Of a stretch of DNA of 64,000 bases, positions 9,235-62,500 are shown one piece after another; position 1 is the stretch's first letter; every line of letters starts with the position of its first letter. Source of the DNA: Anthoceros angustus. Its lineage: Eukaryota; Plantae; Anthocerotophyta. The translations under genes were made by a program, and so were the position numbers. The stretch covers positions 620,001-684,000 of the forward strand of contig MU008182.1 in assembly GCA_010909165.1 (NCBI GenBank), written 5' to 3'. The notes under the pieces were generated by a model that was given only the letters and a program-made list of their open reading frames with translations, was not told where the DNA came from and made no database searches.

Positions 9235-9490
9235 GACGCTCCTTAGCCAACCTCCTTGTCTTTCACGCTAAGCTGACATCACATACCCACAATCTGGATT
9301 GTAGTAGAATGGGAATATGGGCATTGGGAATGATGTTGTAGAACAGATCAACCCATGCGCGCTAATCAGGCATGTGCTTCATTAACCCTAAGTCGACACT
9401 GGAGTCGAGTTGAGTCGACTTGGCAGCAGCATGGTCTTGGCCTGAGGACGACTCCACTGCCGTGGAGTGATAGAGGACATCGATCGGACA

Positions 9491-15400: not shown

Positions 15401-16544
15401 TGTTGGAAAGAGCAGAGAGAGACAGAGCGCTTGATGAAGCTGACAGAGAACGAAAGAGAGTGCTCATTGAATCGCCAAAAACAGTCATTCTGAATACGGA
15501 TGCTGCTGTAGAACGTGCTATGAACATTCTTCAACAGAATCTAGCAAAGCAGGGTTTCGGAAAGGATATAGTGCCGAAGGTGAGCAGTGGTGAGCGCAGC
15601 AGCAAGGGTAGACTTAACAGTTTCTTAGAGTTTGGTAATGTGGCTCAAAGGAAGCGAGCTGCTTCAGAACCTTCAGCTTCTGGCGAAGCCAGAAGTGTTG
15701 GAGAACAACCAGGGAGACGGACTGACCCTAGTAGCAGAGGTCGCCAGCAGTCTGATGTCAGCAAGCAGCTTACTTTTGAGGAAGACAAGAAGATGGAGAT
15801 TGGTGATGCAGAGGAAGCTACAAAATCAGCTCTTGATCTGAAGTTCAGAGTGAGTATGTTTGTTTTTGCTTATGTTGCCAAGTTTCTGCTCTCCACATCA
15901 TGCTTTCTGATCCTTGAAAGCTGTGTGGTGTGGGCAGAGGGACTTTGATACACAGCTTGCCATGGAGGATTTTGGTACCAACCCCGATATTGAAGATAAA
16001 GCTGCACCAACCTTAGAGGAAGCATTACAAGAGGCCAAGCACTTGCTCATGCCTCTTGACGGAATTCTGGATGAGGATACTTGGCAGGTATGGCATACCC
16101 TCCACTCTGAATGCCAGAATTCTTTCACGTTTCTGCAAACCCGCTTTCTACCTACATAACCTGCCACCTTGCAATGTACCAGGCTGATGTCCAGGACGTG
16201 CTCACCCGAGCTCCTCAGCTTGAGAAGTTGGTAGAAGCTTATTCCGGAAAGGGCAGGATAGCTGCACGAGAGCAGAACGAGCAGCTGGACATGATAGCTG
16301 GAAAACTGCCCCCACACGCTTCTCCAGAGCTAACAGCTTTCACGCAACGTGCCCTCATAACTCTGCAGGTACCCTATTACCAACCACTGCATCCCCCCCT
16401 CCCCCCCTGCAGCTCCAGTCCGTTTCTCAGTTGTCTCCGCTGCTGTGCTGTGCTGTGCTGTGCTTGCAGAACAATCCAAGCTGGAAGTTTGTGCAAAAGG
16501 AGCGGATGATGAAGAATGTAGTCTCCGGTTTCTCACATTACTAG
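9491..16544 (+). CDS. Very large putative mitochondrial protein: presequence, Q/G/F octapeptide repeat domain, PPR-like insert, GRG repeats, conserved C-terminal domain resembling Arabidopsis At1g53645 (recalled as mitoribosome-associated). Frameshifts as assembled near ~9740 and within the repeats
   Basis: ATG 9491 reads MHWGRGAVGSRRVARQLLGLGAKRGY. The open frame runs to a GT donor at ~15849. Three further exons (~15939-16088, ~16183-16368, 16470-16544) give MEDFGTNPDIEDK...APQLEKLVEAYSGKGRIAAREQNEQLD...RALITLQNNPSWKF, which parallels the At1g53645 C-terminus as I recall it. Confidence 0.75.
10180..13150 (+). repeat. Coding 24-bp tandem repeat encoding (QGQGFVPA)n variants, with a ~0.94 kb higher-order duplication (~10805-11746 repeated from ~11747)
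   Basis: Visible CAGGGGCAGGGTTTTGTGCCTGCA-type units throughout. Confidence 0.92.
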
Positions 16545-24471: not shown

Positions 24472-25182
24472 ATCCTGTCTTCGAAGTAAATGCCACTGAT
24501 ATTCCTGCACGACAAGAGGATTCTTCTAATCGAGTTGCGTCAAAGTCACTGCAGGATGACCTGCAGTTGCTCGTGGACCTGGATGCGAAAGTCTTGTCGC
24601 CGCAGCACAAGCCGAAGGACAACTGTGTGGGGCAGTCTCAACCAGAGGTTGTCGAGTGTTGACGGATTGTAGTGTGACTCTTGCCATTGTTTGCCTTTCC
24701 GGGCGAGTAAGGCCACCTGCAAGGCGGGGAAGCGGGAAGTTTCAGGTCAGCGAGAATCCAGCCAATTCGGCTTGCCCATGCCAGCGGTGGAGGGACTGCA
24801 AGGTGGTCTGAGCGTTCTGTACTTTTCAGGGTGGAGGGTGAATGCGTCGAAGACGAGCCCGATGATGCCTGCAACTTCTAAACCTAGAGGTGGTGCTCGG
24901 AATCAGCCTCCAATTTTTTGGTCCAGCAGACAACCGGAGAGGATTGTAAACAACATTTATTAAACTGTGCCATATCAAATGATTCACTTTACCTGACGTC
25001 ACTCCGAGGATTGGTTAAGCTGCACAGCTGCCTGGAGTCTGCCACCAATGGCGGGATAGAAGGAAGATCAGAGGATTACAGAGGTACAGAGAACAGAGCT
25101 GGATAGCTATTGCCCACGAGAGGAGCCGGGGCGGGCTGGAATCAGGGACTCCAATTCCCAGACTAGACCCTCGAAAGGAGCG

Positions 25183-26394
25183 ATGGCCGCGGCGGTGCGC
25201 CCTGCGGCGGCAGCGGGGTCTTGCACGTCCGCTTGCAAGCCGGCCTGTGAGCCGAGGCGCGCGTCGAGACCATGTGTGGCTGTTGCGGGCAGCGGGAAGA
25301 GGTGCAGCTCCTTGCGTTGGATCAAACCTTGCGGGAAACCCCGGGCGCCATGGCGGCCGCTGTGCTCCGCGGCTGTGTCGAGCATCGAGCAGGAGGAGAT
25401 GACATCGGACAGGCCCGCAACGCTGCTGCGGGACGGGGAGGAGGGGGACGGAGCAGGCTCGCCCGGGATGCGGGAGAAATTCGAGCAGATGATTCGGCGG
25501 GCGCAGGACGAGATATGCGCTGCAGTGGAGGCCACCGACGGCGGGACCTTTCGGGAGGATGTGTGGACCAGACCTGGAGGGGGCGGGGGCATCAGCCGCG
25601 TGCTGCAGGATGGCAATGTGTGGGAGAAGGCTGGCGTGAATGTGAGCGTGGTGTACGGCACCATGCCTCCAGAAGCCTACCGCGCTGCCACGCACGGGGA
25701 TAGCGTGCCGGTGAATAAGGCTGGCCGGATCCCCTTCTTCGCCGCGGGAGTGAGCTCGGTCATGCATCCCAAGAACCCCTTCGCTCCCACTGTGCACTTC
25801 AACTACCGCTACTTCGAGACGGATGCGCCTGAGGGCGTGCCGGGGGCTCCCAGGGGGTGGTGGTTCGGAGGGGGAACGGATCTCACTCCTTCTTATATCT
25901 TTGATGAAGATGTGAGACATTTCCACCGCACGCAGAAGGCGGCCTGCGACAAGTTCGACGCTGCTTTCTATCCCAAGTACAAGGCCTGGTGCGACGACTA
26001 CTTTCTCATCAAGCATCGGGGGGAGAGGCGCGGCTTGGGAGGTATTTTTTTCGACGATCTCAATGATAGGGATCCTGACAAGCTACTGGCCTTCTCTACC
26101 GAATGTGTTTCTTCGGTCGTCCCTGCTTACCTGCCGATTATTGAGAAGCGCAAGGACACGCCCTTTGAACCGCACCATAAAGACTGGCAGCAACTGCGGA
26201 GAGGGCGTTATGTGGAATTTAACTTGGTGTATGATCGAGGCACCACCTTCGGGCTGAAGACCGGAGGAAGGATAGAGAGCATTTTGATGTCCCTCCCCTT
26301 AACTGCCAGATGGGAATATGATCACCATCCAGCAGAGGGGACTGACGAGTGGAAGCTTCTGGACGCCTGCCGAAACCCCAAGGAATGGGTGTGA
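25183..26394 (+). CDS. HEMF: Oxygen-dependent coproporphyrinogen III oxidase, plastid-targeted, single exon, 403 aa
   Basis: Uninterrupted ORF with [64 protein letters not shown] and [20 protein letters not shown]. Confidence 0.97.
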
Positions 26395-32767: not shown

Positions 32768-33821
32768 TCCGGTGCGCACGGTTTGTCTTGTGGCACCCCT
32801 TTCCCTCCAAATGATTGGTGATTGGTAATATACTTCTTCGAGCTTGCTGCCATTGCCCTTCGAGCTGGCCACTGTAGCCTTTCAAGCTACCTAATGTATG
32901 ATATCAAGTTGCTCTTAATACATTGTCTCTCAAGATATCTTGGTTGAGTATCTTGCACGGGAGAATTCACAATACTCTTCGCCTATTCCCGCATCAAGAA
33001 CCCATATCCGTTGATTGATTACTCATATTACGACCAGTGGCGATGTGGTAAACCCGCCCTGAGCTGATGGTGTATATGGTGTATGTCATCCCTCTTGGCT
33101 GCTACGCAACTCCCTTGCTTATCTCTCTGTTTGAAGGTTTTCTCTCTCTATGTTGGAAGGTTTTGCAGTCACTATGTTGAAGTATATTTGCATGCTTAGG
33201 GTCTCTTATTGTAGCCAACTTGCATGCATTATTTTTGAATATTGATTTTAACTAAGTGCGCACCAGTTGAGTTGACAAAGGTCTCCCATCTTGATTGTTG
33301 GCTCTTCTCGCCATGTTATTGAGGCCGTCATCGCTCTTGTTGGCCATACTGGCTATGCTATTCAGCTATGTACAACCAGCGGCGACGTGGTAAACCCGCC
33401 CTAAGCTGATGGTGTCCATGGTGTATGTCATCCCTCTCGGCCGCTACTCAGCTCCCTTGCTTATCTTCATGTTTGAAGATTATTATCAACTAGTGTGGAA
33501 AAACACTTCACATGAGAATTCGGCATAGCATATTACTATTAAATATTGTGCAAACTCTCTTTACATGAGAATTTGGCACAACACTTCCATTATTCTTATC
33601 TCGTGTAGAAGATTTCTCACTTGAGAATAACGCTCAGCAAATTATTATTCACTCATCAATTGTAAAATTGTTATCTACTCATACTTGGCTGAGGGGGTTT
33701 ATGGAGTCGTGCTGGAGCAGTGTTCTCAAGGGTTTTGGAGCGGTGAGCGGTGTTCTCAAGAGTCTTCTATACATGGTCTTCTCCAGGGTCTTCTCTAGGT
33801 CTTTTTACAGGGCTCCCCAGT

Positions 33822-34800
33822 ATGATGCAGGCCACCCAATTTGCGCCTATCAAGGACACCCCCTGCCCGGTCTGCTCTCAGCTTTGCTCTGGGGTTAAGG
33901 GGGTGAAATGTCACATTGGGCACAAGCACAAGGATTTCGACAAGACTACTTGGGAGGCACAAGTACGGCTTGCTTCTTCTTCCGGCGCAGCGGCTCACCC
34001 AATCCCTCCCAGCCTCCTTGGGCCACGTAGTCTTGGGAGTGGCTTCGGAGGTAGTCCAACCACCTGCTGGCGTTGTTTCACACTCGTTTCCCAAGCCCCC
34101 ATCTTTTTCGGCGGCCCCCAAGGCGTCTTCACGATGATGTTCGCCTTGCGTACCGCCTTCCATTGGATCACCTTGCGCGGGACCCCGGGGATGAGGAGGC
34201 TTGGACTCTTTTCCTTTTCCTTCCTAGGTGGTGTCTTCGGCGCTCTAGGGGCGGTTCTTCGGGTCATAGGGAGGTGGCTTCCCGCCTCCGCCGCTTTCAG
34301 GCGGGGGATTGGGAGGCTCTACAAGAGGAGGATCTTTTGGCGGCAAGATCTAGGTTGCGGTCGGCCAAGGTCGACCAGGTTTGTTCGGACCTTGGTAAGG
34401 CACGTCTCCGAAGGTGTCATATGTTAGGTCGGAATGGTGAGTATGCGCGGGCTGCTAGGGCTCTCCGCCCAGAGCCAGTGGCGCCGGCCTCCGAGGACAC
34501 CATCGCCGCACTCCGTGCCCTTCATCCGGCCCCCAGTGACAACATTCCACAGGATACCTTCGACTTCGTGCCCGAGGAGCTTTTTTTTCTAGATAGGGCG
34601 GTCTTTGGTCGGGCCCTCTCCACTGCCCCCCAACTCTCCTTGGGTGGTCTATCAGGGATAATTTATGACCACCTTCGAGATTATTTCTCCCCAGAGGATC
34701 CATCTAGTGGTTTTTCAGAGCTTTTCATTCTGGCGGTGGCTATGGCCAGAGGCGAGGTCCCTCGCAAGATCTCCCAGGTCTTCGGGGCTTGTAGGTTAAC
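33822..34800 (+). mobile_element. 3'-truncated non-LTR retrotransposon, probably CRE/RLE type: N-terminal C2H2 zinc finger and pre-RT region; one frameshift near 34060
   Basis: C-x2-C-x12-H-x4-H at 33864-33929 (CPVCSQLCSGVKGVKCHIGHKH). Then LRRFQAGDWEAL, GEYARAARAL, APASEDTIAALRALHP and LSGIIYDHLRD...GACRL, the region that normally precedes the RT motif RPIAVGE in CRE-type elements. The RT core is absent. Confidence 0.7.
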
Positions 34801-37655
34801 CTACAAGCCCCGGCAGTGAGTGTTGTGGGTTGTGGGTGATGCGGGCACATTCCGAAAGGTGCCTAATCACCCTTCACCGGCGGCGATGAGTTTCATTTGT
34901 CTTTTCCATCGACGCGCCGCTTTTGTGGTGTGCACGAATGTTTGGATCACTCGGGCGGCAGGCACGCCAGAAGTGCGCTAGCGCTGAATCGCTGGGTTGT
35001 ATCACCGGGGTTCATCTCCCTTATGGGCACTGGTGGTGGTCTTGACACGACCATGCATTCACATAGTCACAATGTGGATTCATCAATGCTTGACCGTTTT
35101 CTGATTTTGCTTGTGTGTGCTTGGGCATATGTGGTCACCTGACCATCATCTGTGAAGTCAGTGGTGACTTGCCCACTCATACCACCTGATCACTGGCATT
35201 AAAGCCAGTGGTCAGGTGGCCACTCATGGCCCGTGACCAGTGGTGCTATCCGGGTGGTCACCTCCCATGAGTTCTTGGTCACGTGATCACCCGATGTGCA
35301 TTGTCCTGGTTTTAATTTCCCTCCTTGCTTCCAGATGCATTGGATTTGCCAAATTGGGAGACGATGAGTGTGCAGACCAAGGTCCAATCTTAACTGATGT
35401 TAGAGCTTGCAAGGTTATCCGATGAAGAAGCCCGTTTAGAAAAGGCATCGGAGGAGCATTCAAGTTCACTAGCAGTTTTGAGCTTTTCATTACGGCGGTG
35501 GCTATGGCAGGCGAGGTCCCTCGCAAGATCTCCCAGTCTTGGGCTTGTAGGTTAACCTACAAGCCCCGGCAGTGTGAGTGTTGTGGGTTGTGGGTGATGC
35601 GGGCACATTCGCCGAGCGAGGCTTCAGCCGACCCTTCACCGGCGAGATGAGTTTCATTTGTCTTTTCCATCGGCGTGCTTTGCTTTTGTGGTGTGCACGA
35701 ATGTTTGGATCCTATGGCGCATCGCCATGCTAGCGTTGAAGCGCTGGTTGTATCAGCACGGTTCATCCCTTATGGGCACTGGTGGTGGTGGTCTTGACAC
35801 GACCATGCATTCACATGGTCACAATGTGGATTCATCAATGCTTGACCGCTTTTTCGATTTTGCTTGTGTGCTTGGGCATATGTGGTCACGACCATCATCC
35901 GTGAAGTCGTGGTGACTTGCCCACTCATACCACACGATCAGCGGCATTAAAGCGGTGGTGGTCAACCCGTGACTGGTGCTATCCGGTGGTCACCTCCCAT
36001 GAGTTCTTGGTCACGTGATCATGTGCATTGTCCTGGTTTTAATTTCCCTCCTTGCTTCCGGATGCATTGGATTTGCCAAATTGGGAGACGATGAGTGTGC
36101 AGACCAAGGTCCAATCTTAACTGATGTTAGAGCTTGCAAGGTTATCCGATGAAGAAGCCCGTTTCACAGCAAAGGCACTGGAGGAGCATTCCAAGTTCAC
36201 TAACGTGAAGCTTGCTCTGGCTGAGCTTATTTGCTAACCGGCGGATTGCCAAAGAACGAGCGAGGTTGCTCACCTCTTGACTTTCCAAAGACGACTGCCT
36301 TGTTGCCTGCGAGGTCTAACCTACAAGGTAATTCAGGGTTACCGCAAGTTCCGCAGCCGTCGATCCGCATCATTGCGGGCGCGACTTTCGGTGATGGCGC
36401 GCCGCATAATCCGTGTCGTTGTAGGAAGAAGTCCGTTCCCAAGGGAATGATAGGTGCCGCTGCTTGTGTGCTTGGGCATATGTGGTCACGACCATCATCC
36501 GTGAAGTCGTGGTGACTTGCCCACTCATACCACACGATCAGCGGCATTAAAGCGGTGGTGGTCAACCCGTGACTGGTGCTATCCGGTGGTCACCTCCCAT
36601 GAGTTCTTGGTCACGTGATCATGTGCATTGTCCTGGTTTTAATTTCCCTCCTTGCTTCCGGATGCATTGGATTTGCCAAATTGAGACGATGAGTGTGCGG
36701 ACCAAGGTCCAATCTTAAGCGATGTTAGAGCTTGCAAGGTTATCCAGATGAAGAAGCCCGTTTAGAAAAGGCATCGGAGGAGCATTCAAGTTCACTAACG
36801 TGAAGCTTGCCGTGAGCTTATTTGCTAACCGGCGGATTGCCAAAGAACGAGCGAGGTTGCTCACCTCTTGACTTTCCAAAGACGACTGCCTTGTTGCCTG
36901 CGAGGTCTAACCTACAAGGTAATTCAGGGTTACCGCAAGTTCCGCAGCCGTCGATCCGCATCATTGCGGGCGCGACTTTCGGTGATGGCGCGCCGCATAA
37001 TCCGTGTCGTTGTAGGAAGAAGTCCGTTCCCAAGGGAATGATAGGTGCCGCTGCTTGTGTGCTTGGGCATATGTGGTCACGACCATCATCCGTGAAGTCG
37101 TGGTGACTTGCCCACTCATACCACACGATCAGCGGCATTAAAGCGGTGGTGGTCAACCCGTGACTGGTGCTATCCGGTGGTCACCTCCCATGAGTTCTTG
37201 GTCACGTGATCATGTGCATTGTCCTGGTTTTAATTTCCCTCCTTGCTTCCGGATGCATTGGATTTGCCAAATTGGGAGGCGATGAGTGTGTACCAAGGTC
37301 CAATCTTAAGCGATGTTAGAGCTTGCAAGGTTATCCAGATGAAGAAGCCGTTCACGGCAAAACCTTGGAGGAGCATTCCAAGTTCACTAACGTGAAGCTT
37401 GCCTGGCTGAGCTTATTTGTACAATGGCGGATGGCGACCAAGCAAAAACGAAGCGAGGTTGCTCACCTCTTGACTTTCCAAAGACTGCCTTGTTGCCTTC
37501 TGCGAGGTCTAACCTACACAAGGTAATTTCGGTTCACGCGAGAAATTGCTGATAGCCGTTCGATCCTGAGCTGTGGCGCGACTTTCGGTGATGGCGCGCC
37601 ACAATCCGTGTCGTTGTAGGAAGAAGTCCGTTCCCAAGGGAATGATAGGCTCCGT
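34710..37655. repeat. Nested local tandem duplications: a ~0.76 kb pair (~34711-35472, ~35473-36200) and a 591-bp period array (36227-36817, 36818-37408, noisy third copy)
   Basis: Identical 112-aa and 94-aa ORF calls are offset by exactly 591 bp. The unit includes flank plus the first ~80 bp of the adjacent LTR. Confidence 0.85.
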
Positions 37656-40600
37656 TTTCGTTTGGTGATTCTTACCTCGCTGCGCCGTTCAGCCTCAACG
37701 CACACATACGCCTAACTACTCGCAACTCAGACAGCCCTGTATGGCCAAACGCTTAGGGACCTGTCGTCCGTGATTGCGCTCACATTCGCCACTCACACTT
37801 CCACCCTTCCTCTCTCCACTCACGCTACACTCATCGCCTTAGGGAAAGACGCTGGTTACATGGCCCGACCTCCTCCGCTGCTCCGCCGGCCTCCGTCCGG
37901 CTCAGACGCCTCCCGAGTTCCTCCGGCCACACGCCCACTCGGCCGGGTCGCGGCTCCGGACGAGCACGGGTCACCAGTCACCCTTCCCTGCACACACCAC
38001 AACACGTTAGGTCCGTCACCAGGACCCTGATCAATCTCCCCGGAGCTGTCGTGCCTGCTCAGTGACTCAGGACTCACGTTAGCAAGAAGACACACAAAGG
38101 TCTGCAAGAACGCGGCATCAACACCAAGAGAAAGATGATTTATTCAGAGCGGCCTTAGCCCTCTTATACTACGCCGAAGGTCGGCGCCTTTATTACACCT
38201 CTATTCTGAGCTGAGGGCCAGCTCAGGGTGCCCTAACCGGCCGCCTACTATCCTCCCTATTCCGCCTATCGCCGCCGTCGGTGGTGGGGCTGGGATGGCC
38301 CCTGATTCCTTCTTGGCACCGGCGGCCCAAAGCCGAGCTCGCTGTCATGCAAGCACCCAATCGGATGATCCGCGAGGCGGACCCTTCCTCTTCCCGAGGG
38401 TCTCAGCCGCGCCACCGGCGGCCTCGACAACGGCTCACCACCAAGTCTTCCTCGTCCTCCCTCCCTCTTCTCTCTCGCGGCCTCGCGCAGGGCCTCCAAG
38501 GGCCGGATCTTGGGGGGTGACCGTGGCTCTCCCCACTCCCGAGTTTGGACCTCGGGACCACTGTCTCGACTCGGTCCGGACCTCTAGGTCGGTCTTCCCT
38601 CTGGTCCGGTCTCCTCCGGGTCCGGCCTCCGCCTATTCTTCCTCGAGTCCGGACCTCGGGTCCGGACCTCGGGTCCGGCCTGACCCAACCCTTCCTCGGG
38701 GTCCGGACCTCGTGGTCCGGACTACTAGAGTCTGGATCCCTAAGTCCAGATTTCCTTGGGGCCGGACCTCGGGATCGGCCTTTCCTCGAGTCCGGACAAA
38801 GTCCGACCTCGTGCCCCGGCATGCCTCACCGGCTGGTCACGGGTTCATCCACCGAGCCTCCTTGGTTCCCGAATGCCCGGTTGCACCTTTCCTTCCTCCA
38901 AGATCCTCCCTCTTCCTTCCATGCGAGGGTGCCGAGGCTTCCTGTGGCGCCCTTCCTCCTCCTCCTCCTCACGGCTTCCTCCGGCCACATCAAACAACGC
39001 CCTAGGACTCCTGTGCAGGCTGTCCGGGTCCGCCCTCTCTCGCCTCCTCCTTCCATCCTTCCGAAGTCCACCTCCCGCCTAGGGTGGCGCAGACCTCGAG
39101 CCTTGAGGAGCTCTGGTAGTAGGCGAAGTCGGAATCGACTTGAATCGCCTCCTCCACATGAGCCCGAGCACCTGCATTCCTCCTCCAGAGGTGCTCCAGA
39201 ATCAGGCCGCCACCCGGTGCCTGCGGCTGCTACCAGGCGGGCGGACTCCCTTGAGGCCGTCAAGGCTGCCTCCGCTACCTCTTGCAACCTTCGCCGCCGA
39301 CGCTCTCCTCCTCCCGTTGTTCCAGCCCGCCATATGGGCCATGGAGCCGAGCTCCTTCTGCCTCGCAACCGGACGAGCAATCGAGCCTCTCCTCCAAGGC
39401 TTTCTTCCTCCGCCTATTCTTTCCGGAGGTCCTCCACTTCCTTCTCCAGGCGGGCGGTATCCCGTCAGGCTCACGGCTTCCTCCACATCCTGCTGCAACC
39501 TTGCGACGCCGAACTCCTTGCACTGCCGCCATTCTCCTCCGCTGCGGAGCTGGAGGCGCCACCTCTCGTCAAGTCTTGGATTCTCTCGTTGAGAACCCGC
39601 CCGATGCATCTTGGAGTTGCAACTCCAAGGTGTCCTTCTTGTCCGCCTCCCGCCGCCCTTCTACCTCCTGCTGCACTCGAGGTCCCCAATCTCCCGGGTC
39701 TTGGCCTCCGATGCCTCCTCACGGCCTGCGGCTTGCTCATGCCACTTGCTCGGCCTTGATTGGCCGGCTCTCGCCGCCTCCACCGGCCCGATCACGCCGA
39801 GTGATCGCGATCGGCCTGCCGAGGCCTCCGCCACCTTCACCGAGCCTCCAGCCTTGGCTCGTCCGGCTGCCTCCGCCAGATCCCGCCGCTGCGCCGGCCT
39901 CCGCCTCCTCCGCCTCCTCCGCTCAGAGGTCCTCCTTGGGCCTCGCTCACTGCTCCTCCACCAAGGAATTTGGTCCGTCCTGCGATGGACCTCTCCTCCC
40001 GCCCGCTTCCTTCCTCAATCCGAGCCGAGCCTCCTTCCGCCTCCTCCTCCTCCCCTGCCTCAGTTACCTCTTGCAACCTTGCTGCGCTCGGCGTTCTCCT
40101 CCTCCCGTCGTTGTTCCCTCATGATTCGAGCCATGGGTGAGCTCCCCTTCACTTCCTGGCCGGACGAGCAGCTGTAGCCTCTCCTCCGGTGCTTTCTTCC
40201 CGTCTATTCTTTCCGGAGGTCCTCCACTTCCTTCTCCAGGCGGGCGGTATCCCGTCAGGCTCACGGCTTCCTCCACATCCTGCTGCAACCTTGCGGCGTC
40301 GAACTCCTTGCACGCCTATTCTCCTCCGTCTTCAAGCGGAGGCGTTCTACCTCTCGCTCGAAGTCTTGGATTCTCTCGTTGAGAACCCCTGCTTTCCGTG
40401 CATCTTGGGTTGCAACTCCAAGGTGTCCTTCTTGTCCTCCTCCACCGCCCTTCTACCTCCTGCGGTGCACCACAGGGTCCCCAATCTCCCGGGTCTTCTC
40501 GGCCATCCCAAGACCCTGAGCATACCGTCCATGACGGTAGCAGACCGCCGTGTTTCCTCCACGGCCGCTGAGGCTCCCAAAGTCCGGGAGCGGCATCTCA

Positions 40601-42963
40601 CGGTCCGTGGGACCTCCATACCCCCGAGCAAGTCCGGACTGGGTTCTCGGACAATCGGGACCCTTAGGTCCCGAGTGTCCGAGCTTCCCCTCCTTGGCCC
40701 TTTTGGCGCGAGCTCCTTCTCGCCCTTTTCTCCGGGCTCGGAGGTGATGGAGTCCGGAGCACGCCTTTGCCCCTTCCTTCTCCAGGCGGGCGGTATCCCG
40801 TCAGGCTCACGGCTCGGCCGCCTCCGCCTCCTCCGCCTCGCCTCCTCACGGCTTCCTCCGCTTCCTCGCCTCCATCGCTTCCTCCGCAGGAAGAGGTACT
40901 GCACCGACCGGGTGCCGCGCCAGGTAGCCGTGGTCTTGCGTCTCTTGGCTCTCTCGGCCGCCTCCGCGGGCCTCACCGAGTGATGGCCGTGGCGGGGGGC
41001 TGGGGTCGGGCGCTTCTGCTGGGTGGCTGGTTGGGGCACGGAAGGAGGGAGGCGGAATTGCTTCCCATACTTCCTGGGTGGTGAGGGGTCCGCTGCAGTA
41101 TGGAGTCCGGAATCCCTCCGCCTCCTCCCGAGTCCGCTTTGGTCGACCGCCTCCTCCCTCCGGCGCCCTTGCCGCTCCACTTCCGGCTCCAGCCCTTTTC
41201 CGAGCGCTCAAGCTCCTTCTCGCCCTTTTCTCACAGGGCTCGGCGGAGGTGATGGAGTCAGGAGCACGCCCTTTGCCCCTTCACCGGCGGGGCCGGCTCT
41301 GGATCTGCTGCCGGTGTCCTCCTGCTCCACACAGGCGTCCTTCGCCCTCCTTCTCCTCCTTCTTGCCACTCGTCGGCGGGGAAGCTTGCGCACCGGCGGG
41401 GCCGCGTTGTGCGTTGTGGCGTGGTCTTGCGTCTCTTGGCTCTCTCACAGTCAGGGGCTCCTCGGTAGGAGTGATGGGATGTGAGGCTGGGGTCGGGCGC
41501 TTCTGTGGGTGCTGGTTGGGGCACGGAAGGAGGGAGGCGGGTGCTTCCCATACTTCCACAGGTGGTGAGGGGTCCGTTCAGGGCGTATGGAGTCAGGAAT
41601 CCTCAGTCGTCCTCCTCCGAGTCCGGGGCGCCGGCCTCCTCCCTCCGGCGCCCTTGCCGCTCCACTTGGCGGGGCCTCAGGTCCTTTCGGGCGCTCGCTC
41701 AAGCTCTCCTTCCTTGAGGAGTTCAAATGCCCCATACATGGATCGTATGGGACAGCCAGATGGCGAAGGCTTCTCGGTCTGAGCTTGCGAGCCTCGCTAA
41801 AGGCGAAGATAATCCTTCCCGGTCGCCCTCTTCCCAGCTGCGGTAGCGTGCGGGAACACCAATAGATTATCACCAAGGTGATCCACCTTGGTGAGTAGGT
41901 TCCGTGACAATGATCCGGCCACCGCCTCGACTCGACCGTCCAATGTGTCGGATATCGCCCAACCACAGGTCCGCTGCCCTGTGCCTTAGCATCGCTGGTC
42001 GGCCCTATCTTCCCTTCGCCTTGAGGGGCCCGCACCACTCCCCTCTTCCTCCTTGGGGCGGTTGTAGGCCCCAGACCTCCAAGGTCCATCGCCTTGGGTC
42101 CTCCGGAGGTTCTTGGACCGCACCTCCTTATTGACCGCCAAGATCTTCGGGCAAACTCCGGACGGTGACACTATCAAATGTCCGACCATTTGGAACACAT
42201 CCAAATGCCACTCCGCACCAATTCTCCGCCTCGGAGCGAGCCCAAAGTCCGGATAGCGCCGGTCACAATGTTGCGCTCCACAAGGTTCCATGGCTCCCAA
42301 ACTTCCTGGGCTTTTGGGTGCCATCGCCTTCTCCTCCCTTGTCAGAGCTTGGAGATCGGCCGGGCACGCTGCGCCTTCTTCGCCGCCTCCGACCTCAACG
42401 GTGAGCCAAGACGCCGAGTGTCCCACGAGATACCGCCAGAGAGCCGGATCGGAGCGCAAGAGATCGCGAGAATTGTCTCGAGGTCCGAAAATGACCTTCT
42501 TCCGCGACCACGCCGGAGTAACGGGCGGAGGGCGCCTCGTCCAGAATCGCGAGGTCCGCATGGCTTACTCGCCCTACGCCCGACCGCCTTACGCTGCCAG
42601 CTGCTACGCCGCCAGCGGCTCTACGCCGCACCGCGCGGGCGTGAATCTATAACGGCCTCGCAAGGTTACGGCCCCGACCACTGCATGCCCGTCCTCCACT
42701 CGTGGTCGCCCACGTGGCGCCGCCTAGTCCGCCCCACGCCCAACTTCTAAGTTACCGGCGATTTATCCCGCCTGGTCCCGGAGTGGGTCCGGACTTATCC
42801 TGCTACCGCCCGCCATCGTAGGTCGGTACGCCTCACTCCGAGTCCGAGTATACTCCGAGTGCCCGAGTGCTAACCGTGCTTATTTCCCCTTTTCGCCTCA
42901 TTTTATCCTTCTCACAAAAACAAACCCTACCTAATTTCTAACCCCGGAAGTCCGTAGTCCACA
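37572..42963 (-). repeat. 3' LTR (~5.4 kb)
   Basis: Plus strand starts TGTGGCGCGACTTTC and ends TCCGTAGTCCACA; both ends match 51680 and 56643. TATAAG (38163-38168) and AATAAA (38139-38144, 38189-38194) lie on the minus strand. Confidence 0.88.
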
Positions 42964-42978
42964 TACTCCCTTCTCACC
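42964..42978 (-). promoter_or_regulatory. Polypurine tract
   Basis: Minus strand GGTGAGAAGGGAGTA lies immediately before the 3' LTR. Confidence 0.85.
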
Positions 42979-42989
42979 GCTGCCTCCGC

Positions 42990-44050
42990 CAACACTAAGC
43001 GTGTACTTTTTCACCCGCCACCGCTTCACCCGAGTGGGCGGTTCACCATCCAAGCTGCGAACGGACCCATTGGGGTATACCCGACGACTTGGTAAGGCCC
43101 CATCCATCGAGGTGGAGTTTACAGGAAGTGCATATGTCGGTCCGTAAAGGAGGCGGATCTCCTCCTTCACATACTCCCGATTCCTAAGGCGCTATCATGC
43201 CAGTTGATTCTGCATGCTTGCATTGCTGTTGCGCCTCTTCCTCCCTCCGTATCGACAAACCCTAGCAACCGCTCCAGTTGGCTCTCTTCATCCGTTAAGC
43301 GCCTTTCCATCATGACCCGGAGTGTTGGCACCTCAAACTCGACCGGCATAACGGGTGAGTGCCCATAGGTCAGATAATACGGAGTTCGTTGCGTGGTTAC
43401 CTTCTCTGCCGTTCTGAACGCCCATAGCGCCGATGGCAGCTTTGTATCCCAGTCGTGCGCATAGTTAACCGTCAGCTTATTGAGGATGCGGCAGATAAGT
43501 CCATTGGTCTTCTCGTCATCCGCTTGGCCTTTGTAGGGGCGTTTACGATGTGATGCGAAATAGTCCGTCATTGCGCTTATCACATCATTGAGGAAATGGG
43601 TTCCCCTATCGCTACACAACGGACACCCATACCTTGTGATGATGTTTTCAGAGAGGAATTTGGCCACCGTGCTCGCAGAGTCCGCTCTAGCGACCGCCCA
43701 ACCCACCGTGCTCGCAGAGTCCGCTGCCACCAAGATGTACCGCTGTGTGTGCCCGGTCGGTGATAGGTCCAACGTCGATGCCCCATTTCTCAAAAGGCGC
43801 TAGTGCTAGTATGGGCACTAACGGCCATTGAGTTGTGGCGGCCGGCTTCCCGATCCGCCGACAAGCATCACACTTCTTCACAATTGGTGTGTTTCCCCAT
43901 ACATGGTGGGCCACCACTCACCTCCAAGATTTTCTTGGTGGTGACTCACGCATAATGTCCACCACCTAGTCCTTCGTGCATCCCTTTATTACCACCTCCG
44001 CTCACTGGAGGTACCTTCGTTCCACACCGTCGCCCTACCTTAAAGATGCA
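42990..44050 (-). pseudogene. Integrase, frameshifted
   Basis: Zn-binding HYA...CDAC, APFEKWGID, SDRGTHF, WDTKLPSALWAFRTA...TPYYLTYG, and GPY/F-like C-terminus VYPNGSV...RVKKY. Confidence 0.9.
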
Positions 44051-51660: not shown

Positions 51661-51676
51661 TTCCCGAACGGCGCCA
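51661..51676 (-). promoter_or_regulatory. Primer binding site, tRNA-Asp-like
   Basis: Minus strand TGGCGCCGTTCGGGAA lies 3 nt after the 5' LTR. Its first 10 nt match the complement of the plant tRNA-Asp 3' end (TGGCGCCGTTGCCGGGGA). Confidence 0.75.
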
Positions 51677-51679
51677 AAA

Positions 51680-54600
51680 TGTGGCGCGACTTTCCGATGG
51701 CCACCGCGCACAATCCCGTGTCGTTGTAGGAAGAAGTCCGTTCCCAAGGGAATGATAGGCTCCGCTGCCGCTTCGTGTGATTCACCGCACTGCCTGCTCA
51801 CCTCAACGCACACATACGCCTAACTACTCGCAACGTTCACCAGTGCCGGTATGGCCAAGCGTTTAGGACCCGTCATATCTGCATCGCTCACATCGCCACT
51901 CACACTTCCTCTTTCCTCTCTCCACTCACGCTACACTCATCGCCTTAGAAAGACGCGGTTACACCGGACCTCCTCCGCTGCTCCGGCCTCTCCGTCCGGC
52001 TCAGACGCCTCCCGAGTTCCTCCGGCCACACGTTTCCGCTCGGCGGCTGCTCGACGAGCACGGGTCACCGCCACCCTTCCCCGCACACCACAACACGTTA
52101 GGTCCGCTACCAGACCCGATCAATGAGCTCGCCGCCGGTGACTCAGACTCACGTTAGCAAGAAGACACACAAGGTCCGCAAGAACGCATCAACACCAAGA
52201 GAAAGATGATTTATCTGAGCGGCCTTACTCTTATACTACGCCGGTCGGCGCCTTTATTACACCTCTATTCGAAAAGGGCCACTGTGTGCCCTAACCGCCG
52301 CCTACTATCCTCCCTATTCCTATCGCCGTGGTGGTGGGCCGGATGGCCTCATTCCTTCTTGGCACCGGCGGCCCAAAGCCGAGCCCCGCCGATCATGCGC
52401 ACCCAATCGGATGATCCGCGAGGCGGACCCTTCCTCTTCCCGAGGGTCTCCAGCCGCGCCACCGGCGGCTCGACAACGCGGCCACCACCAAGTCTTCCTC
52501 GCCTCCCTCTTCTCTCTCCGGCCTCGCGCGGCCTCCAAGGGCCGGATCTGGGGTGACCGTGGCTCTCCCCACTCCCGAGTTTGGACCTCGGGACTCACGT
52601 TAGCAGAAGACACACAGGCATCAACACCAAGAAAGATGATTTATTGAGCGGCCTTAGCCCTCTTATATACTCGAAGGTCGGCCTTTATTACACCTCTATT
52701 ACGGTGAGGGCCATTTCGGTGTGCCTAACCGCCGCCTACTATCCTCCCTATTCACTATCGTGCGTGTGGTGTGGATATTGATTCCTTCTTGGCAGCCAGA
52801 TTGCGGCGCGCAATCGGATGATCGCGGTAGACCCTTCCTCTTCAGGGGTGCACGTGGCGGTAGCGGCGACATCCACCACCAAGTCTTCCTCGTCCTCCCT
52901 CTTCTCTCTCTGGCGGCCCTGCGTGGGCCCTCAAGGCTGGATCTGCTGGGGTTGGTGATGGTGGCTCTCCCCACTCCCAGTTTGGACCTCGGGACCCTGT
53001 CTCGACTCGGTCCAGGACCTCTAGGTCCGGCCTCCTCCTCCGGGTCCGGCCGCCTGCCTTCCGAGTCCCCCTGGGTCCGGACCTCGGGGTCCGGCCTGAC
53101 CCAACCTTCGGGTCCGGACCTCGGGGTCCGGACGTACCAGAGTCCGGATCCCTAAGTCGGACTTGCCTCGGGGTCCGGACCTCGGGATCGGCCTTTCCTC
53201 GAGTCCGGACAAAGTCCGACCTCAGCTCTGGCATGCCTCCTCACCGGGCTGTCACGGGTTCATCCATCGAGCCTCCCTTGGTTCCCGAATGCCGCACCTT
53301 TCCCTTCCTCCAAGATCCTCCTCTTCCTTCCATGCGAGGGTGCCGAGCTTACCTCGGTGTGGCGACCCTTCCTCCTCCCGCTCCTCCCGCTCTCCCCACG
53401 CTGTTGCCATCAACAGCCCTAGGACTCCTGCTTGTCCCCGGTCCGTCCTCTCGCCTCCTTCCATCCTTCGAAGTCCACCTCCCGCCTAGGGTGGCGCGGG
53501 ACCTCAGAGCCTTGAGGAGCTCAAGGTGGTAGTAGGCGGTCGGAATCGACTTGTCAATCGCCTCCACATGAGCCCGAGCACTGCTCCTCCTTCCATCCTT
53601 CGAAGTCCACCCTCACGCCTGGGGTGGCGCGGGACCTCAGCCTTGAGGAGCTCTGCGTGGTAGTAGGCGGTCGGAATCGACTTGAATCGCCTCCTCTACA
53701 TGAGCCGGGCACGGTACTCCCTCCTCAGGTGCTCAGGCGGTCGCCCGGCTGCGTCTCGTGGCCAAGCTTACGGTGTGGGCGGGCGGACTCTTGAGGCCGC
53801 CAAGGCCGCCTCATACCTCTTGCAACCTTCGCCGCCGGCGCTTCTCCTCCTCCTGTTCCAGCCCGCCAATGGCCATGGAGCCGAGCCCCTTCGCTTCCTC
53901 AACCGGAAGCAACGTAGCCTCTCCTCCAGGCTTTCTTCCTCCGCTCATTCTTTCCTGAGGTCCTCCACTTCCTTCTGGCGGGCGGTATCCCCGTCCGACT
54001 CGGCTTCCTCCACATCCCCGCAACCTTGCGACGCCGAACTCCTCGCCCGCTATTCTCCTCCGTCTTCAAGCGAGGAGGCGTTCTACCTCTCGTCAAGTCT
54101 TGGATTCTCGTTGAGAACCCCCCGCTCCGATGCATCTTGGAGTTGCAACTCCAAGGTGTCCTCCTCCTCCCGCCGCCTCCGCCTCTTCTACCTCCTGCAC
54201 TGCACTCGAGGTCCCCAATCCCGGTGCCGGCCTCCAGGCCTCCTCACGGCTCGACTGCTTGCTCCTTGCTCGGCCTTCGTTGGCTGCGGCCTCCTCCCTC
54301 CACCGGCCCGATCACGCCGATAGTGATCGCGATCGCCTGGCCAGGCCTCCTCCTTGGCCACCTTCACCGAGCCTCCTTGGCTCGTCCGCGCCTCCGCCTC
54401 CGCCTCCGCCTCCGCCTCCTTGGCCCTTCCGCCTCCTTCGCCTCCTCCGCAGAGGTCCTCCGCCGCTTGGGCCTCCTTGGCCACCTTCACTGCTCCTCCA
54501 TGAAGGAATTTAGTCCGGTCCTTGCGGATGGACCAGACCTCCTCTCCGCCTCCGCCTCCTCCTTCCTCAATCCGCCGAGCTTCCCCTCCTTGGCCCTTCC

Positions 54601-56643
54601 GCCTCCTCCCTCCAAGCTCCACCATCCATGCGCCCGGTGGCTTCCACCTCCGGGTCTTCTCGGCCATCCCACATCCCAGAGCATACCGGCCCATGACGGT
54701 AGCGACCGCCGTGTTTCTTCCACGGCCGCCGTGAGGCTCCCACAAAGTCCGTGGAGTGGGCATCTCACGGGTCAAGGACCTCCATACCGCAGTCCGGAGC
54801 AAGTCCGGACTGGGTTCTCCGGACCCAATCAGGACCCTTAGGTCCTGAGTGCTGAGCTGCGGAGCTTCCCCCTCCTTGGCCCTTTTGGCCGCGAGCTCCT
54901 TCTCCGCCTCCTTCGCCTTGAGGGGCTCGGCGGAGGTGATGGAGTCCGGGAGCACGCCCTTTTGCCCCTTCGCGACAGGACCGGCTCGATGCGGCCGCCG
55001 CTGTCCTCCGCCTCGGCGGCCCTTCGCCTCCTCGCTTCCTCCGCTTCGCCACTCACCTGCGCCACCCGCTGGAAGAGGTACCGCACCGACTGGGTGCCGC
55101 TTGCAGTCTCGGCCTTCGCTCTCCGGTCGCGGGCCTCACCGAGTGATGGCCGTGGCGGGCTGGCCGCCTCGCTGGATGCTGCCCGGGTTGGGGCACCAAG
55201 GAGGGAGGCGGGAATTCCCATACTTCCATACTGGTGGTGAGGGGTCCGCCACGTATGGAGTCCGGAATCCTCCCGTCCTCCTCCCGAGTCCGCTTTGGTT
55301 TCACGACCGGCCTCCTCCTCCGCCTCCACTTCCAGGCCTCCCCTTTCCGAGCGCCGCTCAAGCTCTCCTTCCTTGAGGAGTTCAAATGCCCCATACATGG
55401 ATCGGTATGGGGGCCCCTGATGGCTAAGGCTTCTCGCCCGAGCTTGAGCCTCGCTAAACCGGGCGAAGATAATCCTTCCTCCGCCTCCGCCTCTTCCCGG
55501 CAGCTGCAGGTGAATAATAGATTATCACCAAGGTGATCCACCTTGGTGAGTAGGTTCGATGGACAATGATCCGCCACCACCGACTCGACCGCCCAATGTG
55601 TCGGATATCGCCCAACCACAGGTCCGTTGCGGCCCTGTGCCTTAGCATCGCCGGGCCGGCTGGCCTATCTTCCCTTCGCCTTGAGGGGCTCGGCACCACC
55701 CCCTCTTCCTCCTTGGGCGGTTGTAGGCCGCCTCAGACCTCCAAGGTCCATCGCCTTGGTCCTCCCGAGGTTCTTGGACCGCACCTCCTTATTGACCGCC
55801 AAGATCTTCCAAACTCCCGACCAGTGACATCAAATGTCCACTATTTGGAACACATCCAAATGCCACTCCCGCACCAATTCTCCCGCCTCGGAGCTGTGAG
55901 CCCAAAGTCCGGATAGCGCCGGTCACAATGTTGCGCTCCACAAGGTTCCATGGCTCCCAAACTTCCGCTGGCTTTTGGGTGCCACGCCTTCTCCTCCCTT
56001 GCTGTCAGAGCCGCTTGTCGAGACGCCGCACGCCTTTTCGCCGCTGCTCCGACCTCAACGGTGAGCCGCCAAGACGCCCGAGTGTCCCACGAGATACCGC
56101 CAGAGCCGGATCATGAGCGCAAGAGATCGCGAATTGTCTCGAGGTCACAGAAAAATGACCTTCTTCCGCGACCACGCCGGAGTAACTCCGGGCGGGAGGG
56201 CGCCTTCCCCGTCTGTGAATCGCCGAGGTCTCGCATGGCTTACTCGCCCTACGCCGCTGCACGCCTTACGCCGCCACAGACTGCTCTACCCCGCACGCGG
56301 GCGTGAATACCGCTATAACGGCCTGCAAGGTTACGCCCGACCACGATGCCCGCCCTCCACTGTGGTCGCCCACGCGCGCCGCCAGTCCGGCCCTTACGCC
56401 CAACTTCTAAGTTACTCGGCGCATTTATCCCGCCTCGGTCCCGGAGTGGGTCCGGACTTATCCTGCTACCTTGTCGCCCGCCATCGTAGGCCTAGGTACG
56501 CCTCACTCCGAGTCGAGTATACTCCGAGTGCCGTCCGAGTGCTAACTGCGGCTTATTTCCCCTTTTCGCCTCATTTTATCCTTTACTCCTACAAAAACAA
56601 AACCTACCTAATTTCTAACCCCTGTGGAAGTCCGTAGTCCACA
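51680..56643 (-). repeat. 5' LTR (~5.0 kb)
   Basis: Collinear with 37572-42963 including both termini; contains local duplications (~52140-53000). Confidence 0.88.
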
Positions 56644-60169: not shown

Positions 60170-62500
60170 CTTGCACAACACCTTTCACTACCTGTAAGGC
60201 CTCTTTTGTGAGCACAAACAAAAGGTCATCACCATGTTGTCCATGCACCTCCATTTCAAACTTGCATGTCCGAACAATATGGGCTGGAGAATGCGATCGT
60301 TGTCCATATCCATTACAGCCAACCGGTGTCCTCTTGCAGTGTCTGGACCACGGACCACGAATCCCCGCTTTGTAAGTGACATTAGACCATGGGCAAGCAA
60401 TCGTGAAGCAATGTGTGCTTATGATAAGTAGGTAAAAGCTCGACCTTCATCTTCATGGTCGGCAAGTACAAGGAAGTTGTCCCGACTTGAGGACATCGCC
60501 ATGTCGACACATCAACGTCGGACTCGATGTCATTTTCACGAGATTAGCGAGGAGGGAAGGAGGACCGCATCCTCCAACAATGTTCTGCGTGATTGGCTTC
60601 CTCGAGTTACGCTGGGACCAATGCTCAGGCATGAGGTTTGATCCTCACAGGCGTCCAAGCCCAGTGTGTTTCAGTTTGAATGGTTGCTCTCAGCGATCAA
60701 CACAAAAGCATGCGTGCGCATCAGCAGTGCGTTGGGTCGCCATGCTACGGTAGATGCATTGTCTTGGAACCGAGAATAGGATCACAACCATGCTTGGCCC
60801 TCCTGTTTACCTCATGTTTACCAATTAACCAAAACCTGCACCCCATGCTGCCCGAGGCATATGAACTTGCTGCCCGATATGGTTGCGGACAAGTACTCCA
60901 CAACATCCGCTGCATTCGCCTTCTTTCGGAGATGACTCATTGCCGTAGCGATCGCTTCAAGATCCTTTTGCACCATCGTGCTCCCCTTCCCATGGCCACT
61001 CCCAAAGTATGACCGAGCATGTTACACCCATCCGTGAGGCTTGGGTAGCGAGCAATGAAATAGCTTAGCGGCATGCCTTGAACGGCTTGCGGCCCCATCC
61101 GACCAAAGACCAATGTTCCGGTGCAGGAAACCACGCATCCTGCATCCATTGCGGTCTTGAGCAAGCAATGTTGCACAAACAATGTCATGAACAAGATCAT
61201 CACTAATGTAAAATGGTAGTATTTCGATGGATGCGGGATCATGCATCCACGAGCTATTCCGGTAGAACACCAACACGAAGATTGATACCGATCATTTTGC
61301 CAGTGCATAGACTGTATCTCATTCTGGACACCAAATGCATAGTTCTGGGAGAAGTCCATGACAGAAACAACTACGTCTTGTGGAAACCATTCCAAGCATT
61401 GCCTGAACTCTATCCCTTGCCACCGTGCACAAAATCATGCAGCACAAACTCCTTGAGCTTTACCTTGAAGTGAAACACAAACTCTGAGGGGTGTGTTTCC
61501 ATGAACACAAGCTTGATACGTTTCTTATCATTCCCATCTGCGTCTCGACCAACCACTGTCGGAAACAACGCCACTTTAGAATAGCTTGTGGTTGAATGTC
61601 TACGGAGGTCTCTGATGGACAAAACAAAAGCTTGGGAATCCCACATCTGTCACAAGCCCCCTGCAGGCATGAAGGGCATGCCAGGCTTCATCTGGTCCCT
61701 TTGGACACAACAAACGCTCACATAGCTCCCTCACTGATTGCACAGAAGTGGAGGCAGCATTACATGAAAGGCTTGGTGTGGCTCCGATAGGGGCACATAC
61801 CATGCAGGAACAAAGGCAATGGCCACAGGAGTGAATCCTGGAAACTGAACCACGCAGGCCATTCAAAGCATCCTTTAAAATGCCATCTCTACGTGATATC
61901 TACAACAAGAAAGATTACGCTCGCAAACTCTTCACGTAAAAGGCTTCAACTTCTCAAATGTCCTTTGCCCAACATGGGCGTCCGGTGCTCCAAAAGCGGA
62001 GATAGAACTCATGCAGACACCACAACGACTTGTGTCGCTTGCTGAATGTATTCAGCCGAGTGGGCGATGGGTCATAGGAAAGTGACCCACTACCCACGTA
62101 TCCCAAGGACATGACCCCAAGCCCACTCGGACGAGCGGGCCAGCCACCTACGTGCATGACCATCGGGACAAGTAGCACTGTCGAATATGCACGATCCGTG
62201 GCCATGTGATTACAACAAGACCATAGAGTCACATAAATTGCGGTAGTCACCATGTTACATTTGAGGTGACCATGACACCATGCGAGGACCAAGCAAGTGT
62301 CCACGTGGTGGGCACTGTCATTGCACATGTCCCCGCCCACACCGTGACCATTGTGTCTTGGGAGGCTGGATGCCAAGAGGCCCAGTCGAGGGTGACCAAA
62401 GGGTGCGACAAAAATCTTGAATGGCGGTGAAGCCACGGGGGAGGCGAAGGAACCAAAACTTGAGATGCATTAACGCAAATCATGCCCAACATGCACCCCA
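60170..62500 (-). mobile_element. Degenerate DNA transposase of the DFS(E/Q)NY...SDD..H...SDGA...GHGKG type; superfamily uncertain (possibly CMC/Chapaev-like)
   Basis: KRIKLVFMETHPSEF...LKEFVLHDFV, VMDFSQNYAFGVQNEIQSMHW (61339-61356 for DFSQNY), YISDDLVHD..FVQHCL, WSDGAAS, YFIARYPSLTDGC, GSGHGKG (~60985-61005), ILKRSLRQ. Many frameshifts. Confidence 0.72.

What the first reader, a model, noticed from the sequence alone, without database searches (positions are those of the whole stretch)
39000..42650. Giant ~5 kb LTRs whose U3 appears to encode a long same-sense protein
Seen: PPT, PBS and matching termini fix the LTRs at 37572-42963 and 51680-56643. TATA/polyA-like signals sit ~600 bp from the U5 end, so U3 is roughly 4.7 kb. 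Combining both copies across frameshifts on the minus strand gives a coherent peptide: SRKKVIFCDLETIRDLLRSDPALWRYLVGHSASWLTVEV ... ATDLWLGDIRHIGRSSR..RIIVHRNLLTKVDHLGDNLLVFPHA ... RLKLGREAFAIW..HTDPMYGAFELLKEGELERR, followed by a charged, coiled-coil-like region (KAKEAEKELAAKRAKEGEA; LELQLQDAS). Known: extra ORFs in Athila/Tat/Ogre elements normally lie outside the LTRs, whereas U3-embedded ORFs are a retroviral trait (MMTV sag, HIV nef overlap). Inference: this family carries an accessory gene downstream of the PPT that is copied into both LTRs at each replication. I could not assign the protein to a family.
Basis: partly seen in the sequence, partly recalled or inferred. Interest (0 to 1): 0.78.

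Follow-up and report, generated by a model that had tools for sequence, protein, structure and literature searches.

The report
Protein gene inside plant retrotransposon LTRs
A Gypsy-type jumping gene, likely from a bryophyte, has end repeats of roughly 4 kb that each contain a likely protein gene of 750-850 codons, garbled here by likely sequencing errors, and its product would plausibly protect the element from host silencing, as the predicted fold of the gene at the same position in related elements suggests.

Summary
The element is real: minus strand, 5' LTR 56643-51680, primer site, gag-pol ending at the polypurine tract (PPT), 3' LTR 42963-37572. The assembly is noisy here. Read-stutter duplicates inflate the LTRs (about 4.1-4.3 kb without them, not 5-5.4), and the two LTRs differ no more than stutter copies do, so the frameshifts are likely errors. 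A sense frame runs from ATG 42561 to a stop near 39002 (56236-53419 in the other LTR). Its codon signal matches gag/pol (z 3.2-4.5; opposite strand and non-coding controls about 1 or below), and 11 of 18 family variants are synonymous (5.2 expected). No homologue was found. Five related elements carry a sense ORF at the same place. The modelled domain of four resembles the transposon anti-silencing protein VANC21 (Z 7.7), but I could not link this protein to them by sequence. One relative has a second PPT after its ORF, suggesting capture into U3 by a switch of priming site. Extra ORFs of plant Gypsy elements are known, but described outside the LTR. This scan noted LTR-borne genes before in other genomes (liverwort-like and fungal). 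Verdict: new variant of a known kind.

The parts
51680..56643 (-). 5' LTR (about 4.3 kb without stutter duplicates)
51661..51676 (-). primer-binding-site-like tract (tRNA-Asp type is recalled, not tested)
   Evidence: a similar tract follows the LTR end in L003
43000..51550 (-). gag-pol (protease, RT, RNase H, integrase), frameshifted, with three stutter duplicates; no extra RNase H and no chromodomain; start approximate
42966..42978 (-). polypurine tract directly behind the integrase end
37572..42963 (-). 3' LTR (about 4.1 kb without stutter duplicates)
42562..42963 (-). U3 leader, about 400 bp, no codon signal; T-rich splice-acceptor-like site ending at 42911 (56589 in the 5' LTR)
39002..42561 (-). 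U3 reading frame, 3' LTR copy: ATG behind an in-frame stop, globular-looking first ~280 codons, basic/proline-rich linker, E/K/R-rich coiled-coil-like part, stop shared by both copies
53419..56236 (-). U3 reading frame, 5' LTR copy
38617..38722 (.). array of 13-14 bp units with a TCCGGA core between the ORF stop and the TATA-like box; candidate binding sites
53024..53133 (.). the same array in the 5' LTR
38139..38194 (-). AATAAA (38194, 38144) around a TATA-like box (38168), followed by a T/GT-rich tract; inferred U3/R boundary
37988..38077 (-). intron-like 90 bp in R/U5: GTGAGT donor, CTAAC branch-like site, CAG acceptor
   Evidence: sequence pattern only

Best explanation
This is a non-chromovirus Ty3/Gypsy element whose two LTRs each contain the same sense stretch with a protein-coding signal, likely an intact 750-850-codon accessory gene garbled by sequencing errors, whose product would be a DNA-binding, coiled-coil protein that likely shields the element from host silencing in the way VANC21 does. 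Shown: LTR boundaries at the two RT priming sites, the frame inside both LTRs, a sense-strand codon signal, excess synonymous variation, and a short-motif array just upstream of the promoter-like region. Inferred steps: (1) The gene entered U3 when plus-strand priming moved to a purine tract right behind the integrase, so an ORF that lay between pol and a ~1 kb LTR was copied into both LTRs. (2) It is expressed from the 3' LTR on a spliced RNA (R/U5 donor to the acceptor ~50 nt inside U3) or from its 400-bp leader. (3) The protein oligomerises through the coiled coil and binds the TCCGGA-core array in its own U3, keeping the promoter unmethylated. My odds: real gene under selection about 0.8; VANC/PMD-like anti-silencing role about 0.45.
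For: Boundaries. Breaks equal read noise. Codon test on letters where both LTRs agree, whole frame, minus strand: z 4.53 (0 of 500 order-1 simulations reached it) and 3.22 (1 of 500 order-2). Plus strand z 0.80/1.02; positive controls RT 4.08/3.67 and gag 2.79/2.13; leader, R/U5 and flank on the minus strand below 0. Variants in run X1: 11 of 18 synonymous versus 5.2 expected, P 0.0035; the other minus frames 5 and 3 of 18. Relatives: of 36 loci (of 78) with at least 800 bp after the integrase, 5 (L001, L002, L003, L027, L046) have a purine tract just behind it and a sense ORF about 170-570 nt later; the complete ones are 554, 742 and 630 aa. L001 and L046 end in coiled-coil-like sequence. The window's integrase falls in a 16-row group (support 100/99) with 5 of the 6 ORF carriers in the tree. 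A model of the domain shared by L046/L003/L027/L002 (pLDDT 78) has VANC21 bound to DNA (9lnk_A) as best of 48,161 chains: Z 7.7, rmsd 4.5, 201 residues, next hit 4.5. L001's ORF weakly matches Transposase_32 (E 2.5e-4) and that profile (E 1e-4). VANC targets are short motifs massed in tandem repeats in the element's own non-coding DNA (PMC5735166, passages). L003 has a purine tract before and after its ORF, and the window's promoter-like region aligns just behind the second (score 46 vs 25+-3, 0 of 500).
Against: No sequence link between this protein and the relatives' family: hmmsearch best E 0.38, hhalign probability 0.2%, frame-tolerant search -1.5 bits. The first ~280 codons alone are weak (z 2.40/1.38; z 1.3), and the strong part is GA-rich low-complexity sequence with periodicity on both strands. 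A simpler amino-acid-composition test did not detect the frame (z -0.6 to 0.6) and gave stray positives elsewhere. The post-ORF repeat region scored z 1.9. Of the 18 variant sites, 11 cluster in 28 bp, the mirror plus-strand frame scores 10 of 18, and X1 may be the window's own, noisy sample. Z 7.7 is within the range the tool calls common. The motif was picked after seeing it, and U3 repeat arrays are ordinary. No target-site duplication was found. None of the relatives' contigs shows two LTR copies around an ORF, and in L003 the ORF most likely lies outside a ~1 kb LTR.
Confidence: 0.45

Rival explanations
1. The U3 gene is real and selected, but the protein is unrelated to VANC/PMD: an independently captured accessory protein (transactivator, RNA or particle helper) that replaced the ancestral ORF at this position.
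For: No match to the relatives' profile, to Pfam, to 1.84 billion representatives or to the PDB by sequence. Several stretches look beta-strand-like while the relatives' model is mostly helical (by eye). Extra ORFs fall into hundreds of unrelated groups (PMC6317226, passages).
Against: Queries were at best partly in frame, so the negative searches are weak. Position, size and layout match the relatives' ORFs, and these proteins diverge fast (L001 barely matches the L046 group).
Confidence: 0.33
2. The ORF was once functional but is dead in this family and is carried passively in U3.
For: No open copy was seen; the stop-free path depends on choosing between two noisy readings; the synonymous excess could be old.
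Against: LTR-to-LTR differences equal the stutter noise. A stop-free path with no forced shift exists over all three tested segments. Host genes nearby are clean (444- and 1634-codon frames), so the noise is specific to repeats.
Confidence: 0.1
3. U3 is non-coding; the signal comes from GC-rich, GGA/GAG-rich low-complexity DNA that has few stops.
For: 64% GC and long ORFs in all frames; strand-symmetric periodicity in the distal part; no homologue found.
Against: Strand-specific codon score against composition-matched simulations; synonymous excess in the non-repetitive first part; start and stop shared by both copies.
Confidence: 0.07
4. The long LTR is an assembly artefact or a chimera of two insertions, and the ORF is really internal, as in L003.
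For: Heavy stutter, no target-site duplication, and a relative with an ORF between two purine tracts.
Against: The distal copy begins at exactly the base that follows the PPT and the proximal copy ends at exactly the base before the primer site. Stutters are adjacent, whereas the LTRs lie 8.7 kb apart. A chimera of two insertions would still have this LTR.
Confidence: 0.05

Closest known systems
Sense extra ORFs of plant non-chromovirus Ty3/Gypsy elements (Athila/Bagy2 env-like; Athila ORF-1 PF03078, PMD pfam10536, Transposase_28 PF04195) - PMC7264820 (part 1 of 3 read), PMC6317226 (passages), PMC11963269 (passages, section 11 part 1)
   Same: An accessory ORF downstream of pol in a non-chromovirus element; long LTRs up to ~5 kb are known in this group; relatives found here weakly match Transposase_32.
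   Different: Those ORFs are described in the internal region between pol and the 3' LTR (or before gag). Here the frame lies behind the PPT, inside both LTRs, and pol ends at the PPT. No Pfam match and no transmembrane-like stretch.
VANC21 of the VANDAL21 DNA transposon (PDB 9lnk; PMC5735166 passages) and the PMD/MAIN fold (bioRxiv 10.1101/2024.09.27.615353 and PMC13547354, passages)
   Same: The relatives' same-position domain resembles it in predicted fold (Z 7.7); globular domain plus coiled coil; a short-motif array in the element's own non-coding DNA.
   Different: VANC is encoded by a Mutator-like DNA transposon of dicots; homology of the window's own protein is not shown; binding is untested.
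Phygy (Physcomitrella) and Selgy non-chromovirus clades (PMC6317226, passages)
   Same: The polyprotein fills nearly the whole internal region; no extra RNase H; bryophyte-type relatives.
   Different: Described as short elements; no LTR-borne ORF is mentioned in the passages read; no reference sequences were available to place this element.
MMTV sag and other U3 ORFs of retroviruses (recalled, no call)
   Same: An ORF wholly inside U3, copied to both LTRs; polyA signal apparently upstream of a short R.
   Different: A retrotransposon of a plant; no membrane-protein features; no homology.

Membership tests
Ty3/Gypsy LTR retrotransposon | LTRs, primer site, PPT, domain order protease-RT-RNase H-integrase | tested here: met
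Ty3/Gypsy LTR retrotransposon | target-site duplication | tested here: inconclusive
   flanks do not match; the left junction has three discordant readings
Tat/Ogre/Retand | additional archaeal-type RNase H in or after pol | tested here: not met
   collinear with polyproteins lacking it across protease-RT and RNase H-integrase, and integrase ends at the PPT
Athila | extra ORF and long non-coding region between pol and the 3' LTR | tested here: not met
   under 50 bp between the integrase match and the PPT
Athila | clusters with reference Athila RT/RH/INT | not tested
   the tree held no named Athila reference; angiosperm hits formed a separate group
Phygy | polyprotein spans nearly the whole internal part | tested here: met
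Phygy | clusters with Physcomitrella Phygy; NCGN target preference | not tested
VANC/DUF1985/PMD proteins | PMD/DUF1985 fold in the window's own protein | tested here: inconclusive
   single-sequence model of a mixed-frame fragment has pLDDT 37.6; no profile match
VANC/DUF1985/PMD proteins | the fold in relatives' same-position ORF | tested here: inconclusive
   best match VANC21, Z 7.7, rmsd 4.5, 201 residues, next 4.5; Foldseek and sequence profile did not find it
VANC/DUF1985/PMD proteins | sequence-specific DNA binding and loss of methylation | not testable with these tools
   needs binding and methylation assays
env-like ORFs | transmembrane segment | tested here: not met
   highest 19-residue hydropathy 1.42 in any minus frame of either LTR; frame noise could hide one
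U3-encoded gene (MMTV sag layout) | ORF wholly between the PPT and R, present in both LTRs | tested here: met
   the position of R is inferred from motifs
U3-encoded gene (MMTV sag layout) | expressed from its own or a spliced RNA | not testable with these tools
   no RNA holder listed

The most novel reading that the evidence does not exclude
A bryophyte Gypsy lineage has moved a VANC/PMD-like anti-silencing gene into its LTR by switching the plus-strand priming site. Each LTR, solo LTRs included, is then a self-contained module of gene, binding-site array and promoter that keeps the family unsilenced, and the switch is visible among close relatives with one or two purine tracts.
Probability: 0.3. 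Interest if true: 0.8.

Novelty: new variant of a known kind. Interest (0 to 1): 0.6.

Why it matters
Plant LTRs are treated as non-coding, and annotation pipelines look for extra ORFs only between them. A gene inside U3 is doubled at each replication and survives the recombination that reduces elements to solo LTRs, so removal by the host would leave the accessory gene and its likely target sites behind. If the product is VANC-like, the long-open question of what the extra ORFs of non-chromovirus elements do becomes testable in a transformable bryophyte with one short DNA module. The one-tract and two-tract relatives also give a simple route for gene capture into LTRs.

Tried and rejected
No own genome was held, so copy number, solo LTRs and dN/dS could not be examined. 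Homology searches with the best in-frame fragment (41986-42564) found nothing: word search among longer proteins, metagenome contigs, phmmer of 1.84 billion representatives (0 hits), ESM Atlas whole (best 0.78) and residues 8-75, Pfam, PDB sequences and earlier findings by sequence. All used partly out-of-frame queries, so they are weak negatives. Folding that fragment failed (pLDDT 37.6) and I ran no fold search on it. Viral contigs held no integrase relative. For the relatives' model, Foldseek on PDB and on viral models found nothing at E 0.001, and the sequence profile found only coiled-coil matches. Expression: no RNA holder listed; run X2 gave 7 partial pieces, not used. Isolated LTR-to-LTR mismatches were too few and are noise (0 of 3 and 3 of 6 synonymous). 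The amino-acid-composition test was underpowered. By eye, the start of the protein and a motif near its end reminded me of Transposase_28-type proteins (recalled); Pfam scans of the start did not support this and the end motif was not scanned as its own fragment. The window's promoter-like region aligned above chance in 1 of 3 relatives tried (L003; not L046 or L001). Literature searches for an ORF inside a plant retrotransposon LTR returned no such description; the library lacks most subscription papers, Steinbauerova 2011 was seen only as a reference, and the supplements of PMC6317226 (element tables) were not read and may bear on this.
Full report
Setting. The window is from a land plant. 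It holds a clean 444-codon frame that looks like coproporphyrinogen oxidase (name recalled), and the element's integrase is closest to Riccia and Marchantia proteins at 52-62% identity. An earlier unchecked note on this genome calls the host likely a hornwort. No whole genome was held. Repeats here are of raw long-read quality: adjacent duplicates of 0.4-2.3 kb with many one-base gaps occur in the flanks and inside gag, RT and RNase H.

The element. On the minus strand it reads: 5' LTR 56643-51680, primer-site-like tract 51676-51661, gag-pol, purine tract 42978-42966, 3' LTR 42963-37572. Homology between the LTRs ends exactly at these priming sites. Related polyproteins map in the order protease, RT, RNase H, integrase, without room for an extra RNase H, and the integrase match runs to about 43003. 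So there is no internal space for an accessory ORF. No target-site duplication could be read.

LTR size. Each LTR holds duplicates missing from the other, and a contig of run X1 skips one of them (40721 to 41226). Without them the LTRs are about 4.1 and 4.3 kb. LTR pairs differ by 3.5-6.8% mismatches and 63-69 gap openings per kb; stutter pairs in gag/pol differ by 3.9-6.1% and 55-73. True LTR divergence is therefore hidden in the noise: the element is likely young and the frameshifts are likely errors. Both copies have an ATG behind an in-frame stop about 400 bp into U3 (42561, 56236) and the same stop (near 39002 and 53419), which gives about 750-850 codons without stutters.

Is it coding? 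I scored only letters on which both LTR copies agree, let the frame move as either copy allows, and compared with simulated sequence of the same composition. An amino-acid-composition score did not detect the frame (z -0.6 to 0.6), was weak on positive controls (z 1.5-2.5) and gave stray positives. Unsupervised periodicity gave z 1.3 for the first part and 3.5 for the rest, on both strands. A codon table trained on 1,904 codons from outside the LTRs gave z 4.53 and 3.22 for the whole frame on the minus strand (0 and 1 of 500 simulations) and 0.80/1.02 on the plus strand. RT scored 4.08/3.67 and gag 2.79/2.13; leader, R/U5 and a flank scored below 0 on the minus strand; the post-ORF repeats scored 1.9; the first ~280 codons alone 2.40/1.38. 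Run X1 listed 20 variant sites in 41650-42990. One lay in the leader and one outside the pre-fixed frame words. Of the remaining 18, 11 are synonymous against 5.2 expected (P 0.0035); the other minus frames give 5 and 3, the mirror plus frame 10. The sites are clustered (11 within 28 bp) and X1 may be the window's own sample. Together I put a real, selected gene at about 0.8.

What protein? No search with the window's fragments found a homologue, and folding failed. I turned to relatives. An integrase scan gave 78 metagenome loci; 36 have at least 800 bp behind the integrase, and 22 loci were scanned for purine tracts. Five (L001, L002, L003, L027, L046) have a purine tract just behind the integrase and a sense ORF about 170-570 nt later. 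L002, L003, L027 and L046 share a ~210-residue domain, with a fragment in L024 and 20 database hits. In an integrase tree of 41 rows the window lies, on a long branch, in a 16-row group (100/99) holding 5 of these 6 carriers; L001 lies outside. The shared domain folds with pLDDT 78, and its best match among 48,161 chains is VANC21 bound to DNA (Z 7.7, rmsd 4.5, 201 residues; next 4.5). Foldseek and a sequence profile missed it. I ran that wide search after earlier unchecked notes reported an anti-silencing-like fold for LTR-borne genes in liverwort-like genomes. L001's ORF weakly matches Transposase_32. The window's own protein does not match these profiles, so the link is by position, size and layout only.

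Mechanism (inferred). VANC proteins bind short motifs massed in tandem repeats in their own element's non-coding DNA and cause loss of methylation (PMC5735166, passages). They share a fold with PMD proteins and are predicted to oligomerise through coiled coils, as is the Athila domain (bioRxiv 10.1101/2024.09.27.615353; PMC13547354; passages). The window's U3 has an array of 13-14 bp units between the ORF stop and the TATA-like box, with 6 TCCGGA cores in each LTR against about 0.5 in shuffles; L046 is also rich in this core, L003 and L002 are not. The motif was chosen after seeing it. A donor-like site in R/U5 and an acceptor-like site about 50 nt into U3 would allow a spliced RNA for the 3' copy; no RNA evidence exists. 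L003 has a purine tract before and after its ORF, only the second followed by TG, with about 1 kb from there to the primer site, and the window's promoter-like region aligns just behind that second tract. L001, L002 and L046 have TG right after the first tract. This fits capture of an internal ORF into U3 by a switch of priming site, but no relative's contig shows both LTRs.

Comparison with what is known. Extra ORFs of plant LTR elements are described in the internal region (PMC7264820, part 1 of 3; PMC6317226, passages; PMC11963269), and LTRs of up to about 5 kb are known. Six literature searches found no description of a gene inside a plant retrotransposon LTR, within the limits of the library. 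This scan has noted such genes in other genomes; those notes are unchecked and are not counted as support. The element fails the Tat and Athila structural tests and resembles Phygy only in its compact internal region.

Verdict. This is a new variant of a known kind: a probable accessory gene relocated into the LTR. The gene is likely, its family and function are open, and the noisy sequence limits what this copy can show. Interest 0.6.

Noticed in passing
window 35861-37649: A ~590-bp unit is read three times, each ending in the last ~80 bp of the 3' LTR; the junction letters differ between readings, which blocks reading the target-site duplication.
   Followed up: partly
window 39764-40946: X1 contigs join these two places (skip 1181, only 20 letters on the short side): a deletion variant inside the U3 frame or a misjoin at a short repeat.
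   Followed up: no
window 33747-36200 (+): Non-LTR-retrotransposon-like frames (C2H2-type zinc finger, weak Pfam Zn_SUZ12 E 1.9e-4; RT-like frame 34055-34819, by eye) left of the element.
   Followed up: partly
window 9334-15948 (+): A very long frame (1634 codons) with a Q/G-rich tandem array and one PPR-like motif (by eye).
   Followed up: no
window 25060-26394 (+): An intron-free 444-codon frame resembling plastid coproporphyrinogen oxidase (name recalled); clean, unlike the repeats.
   Followed up: no
window 60937-61434 (-): A transposase-like frame fragment by eye, no Pfam match.
   Followed up: partly
window 42930-43010 (-): The integrase frame seems to run through the purine tract and may stop only ~30 bp inside the LTR; noise prevents certainty.
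   Followed up: partly
L036, L038, L040, L042, L045, L050, L057, L058, L061, L067, L069: A separate integrase group with sense ORF fragments behind pol that resemble each other but had no clear purine tract next to the integrase.
   Followed up: no
L046 (whole locus): TCCGGA is over-represented throughout, pol included (12 versus about 1 expected).
   Followed up: partly
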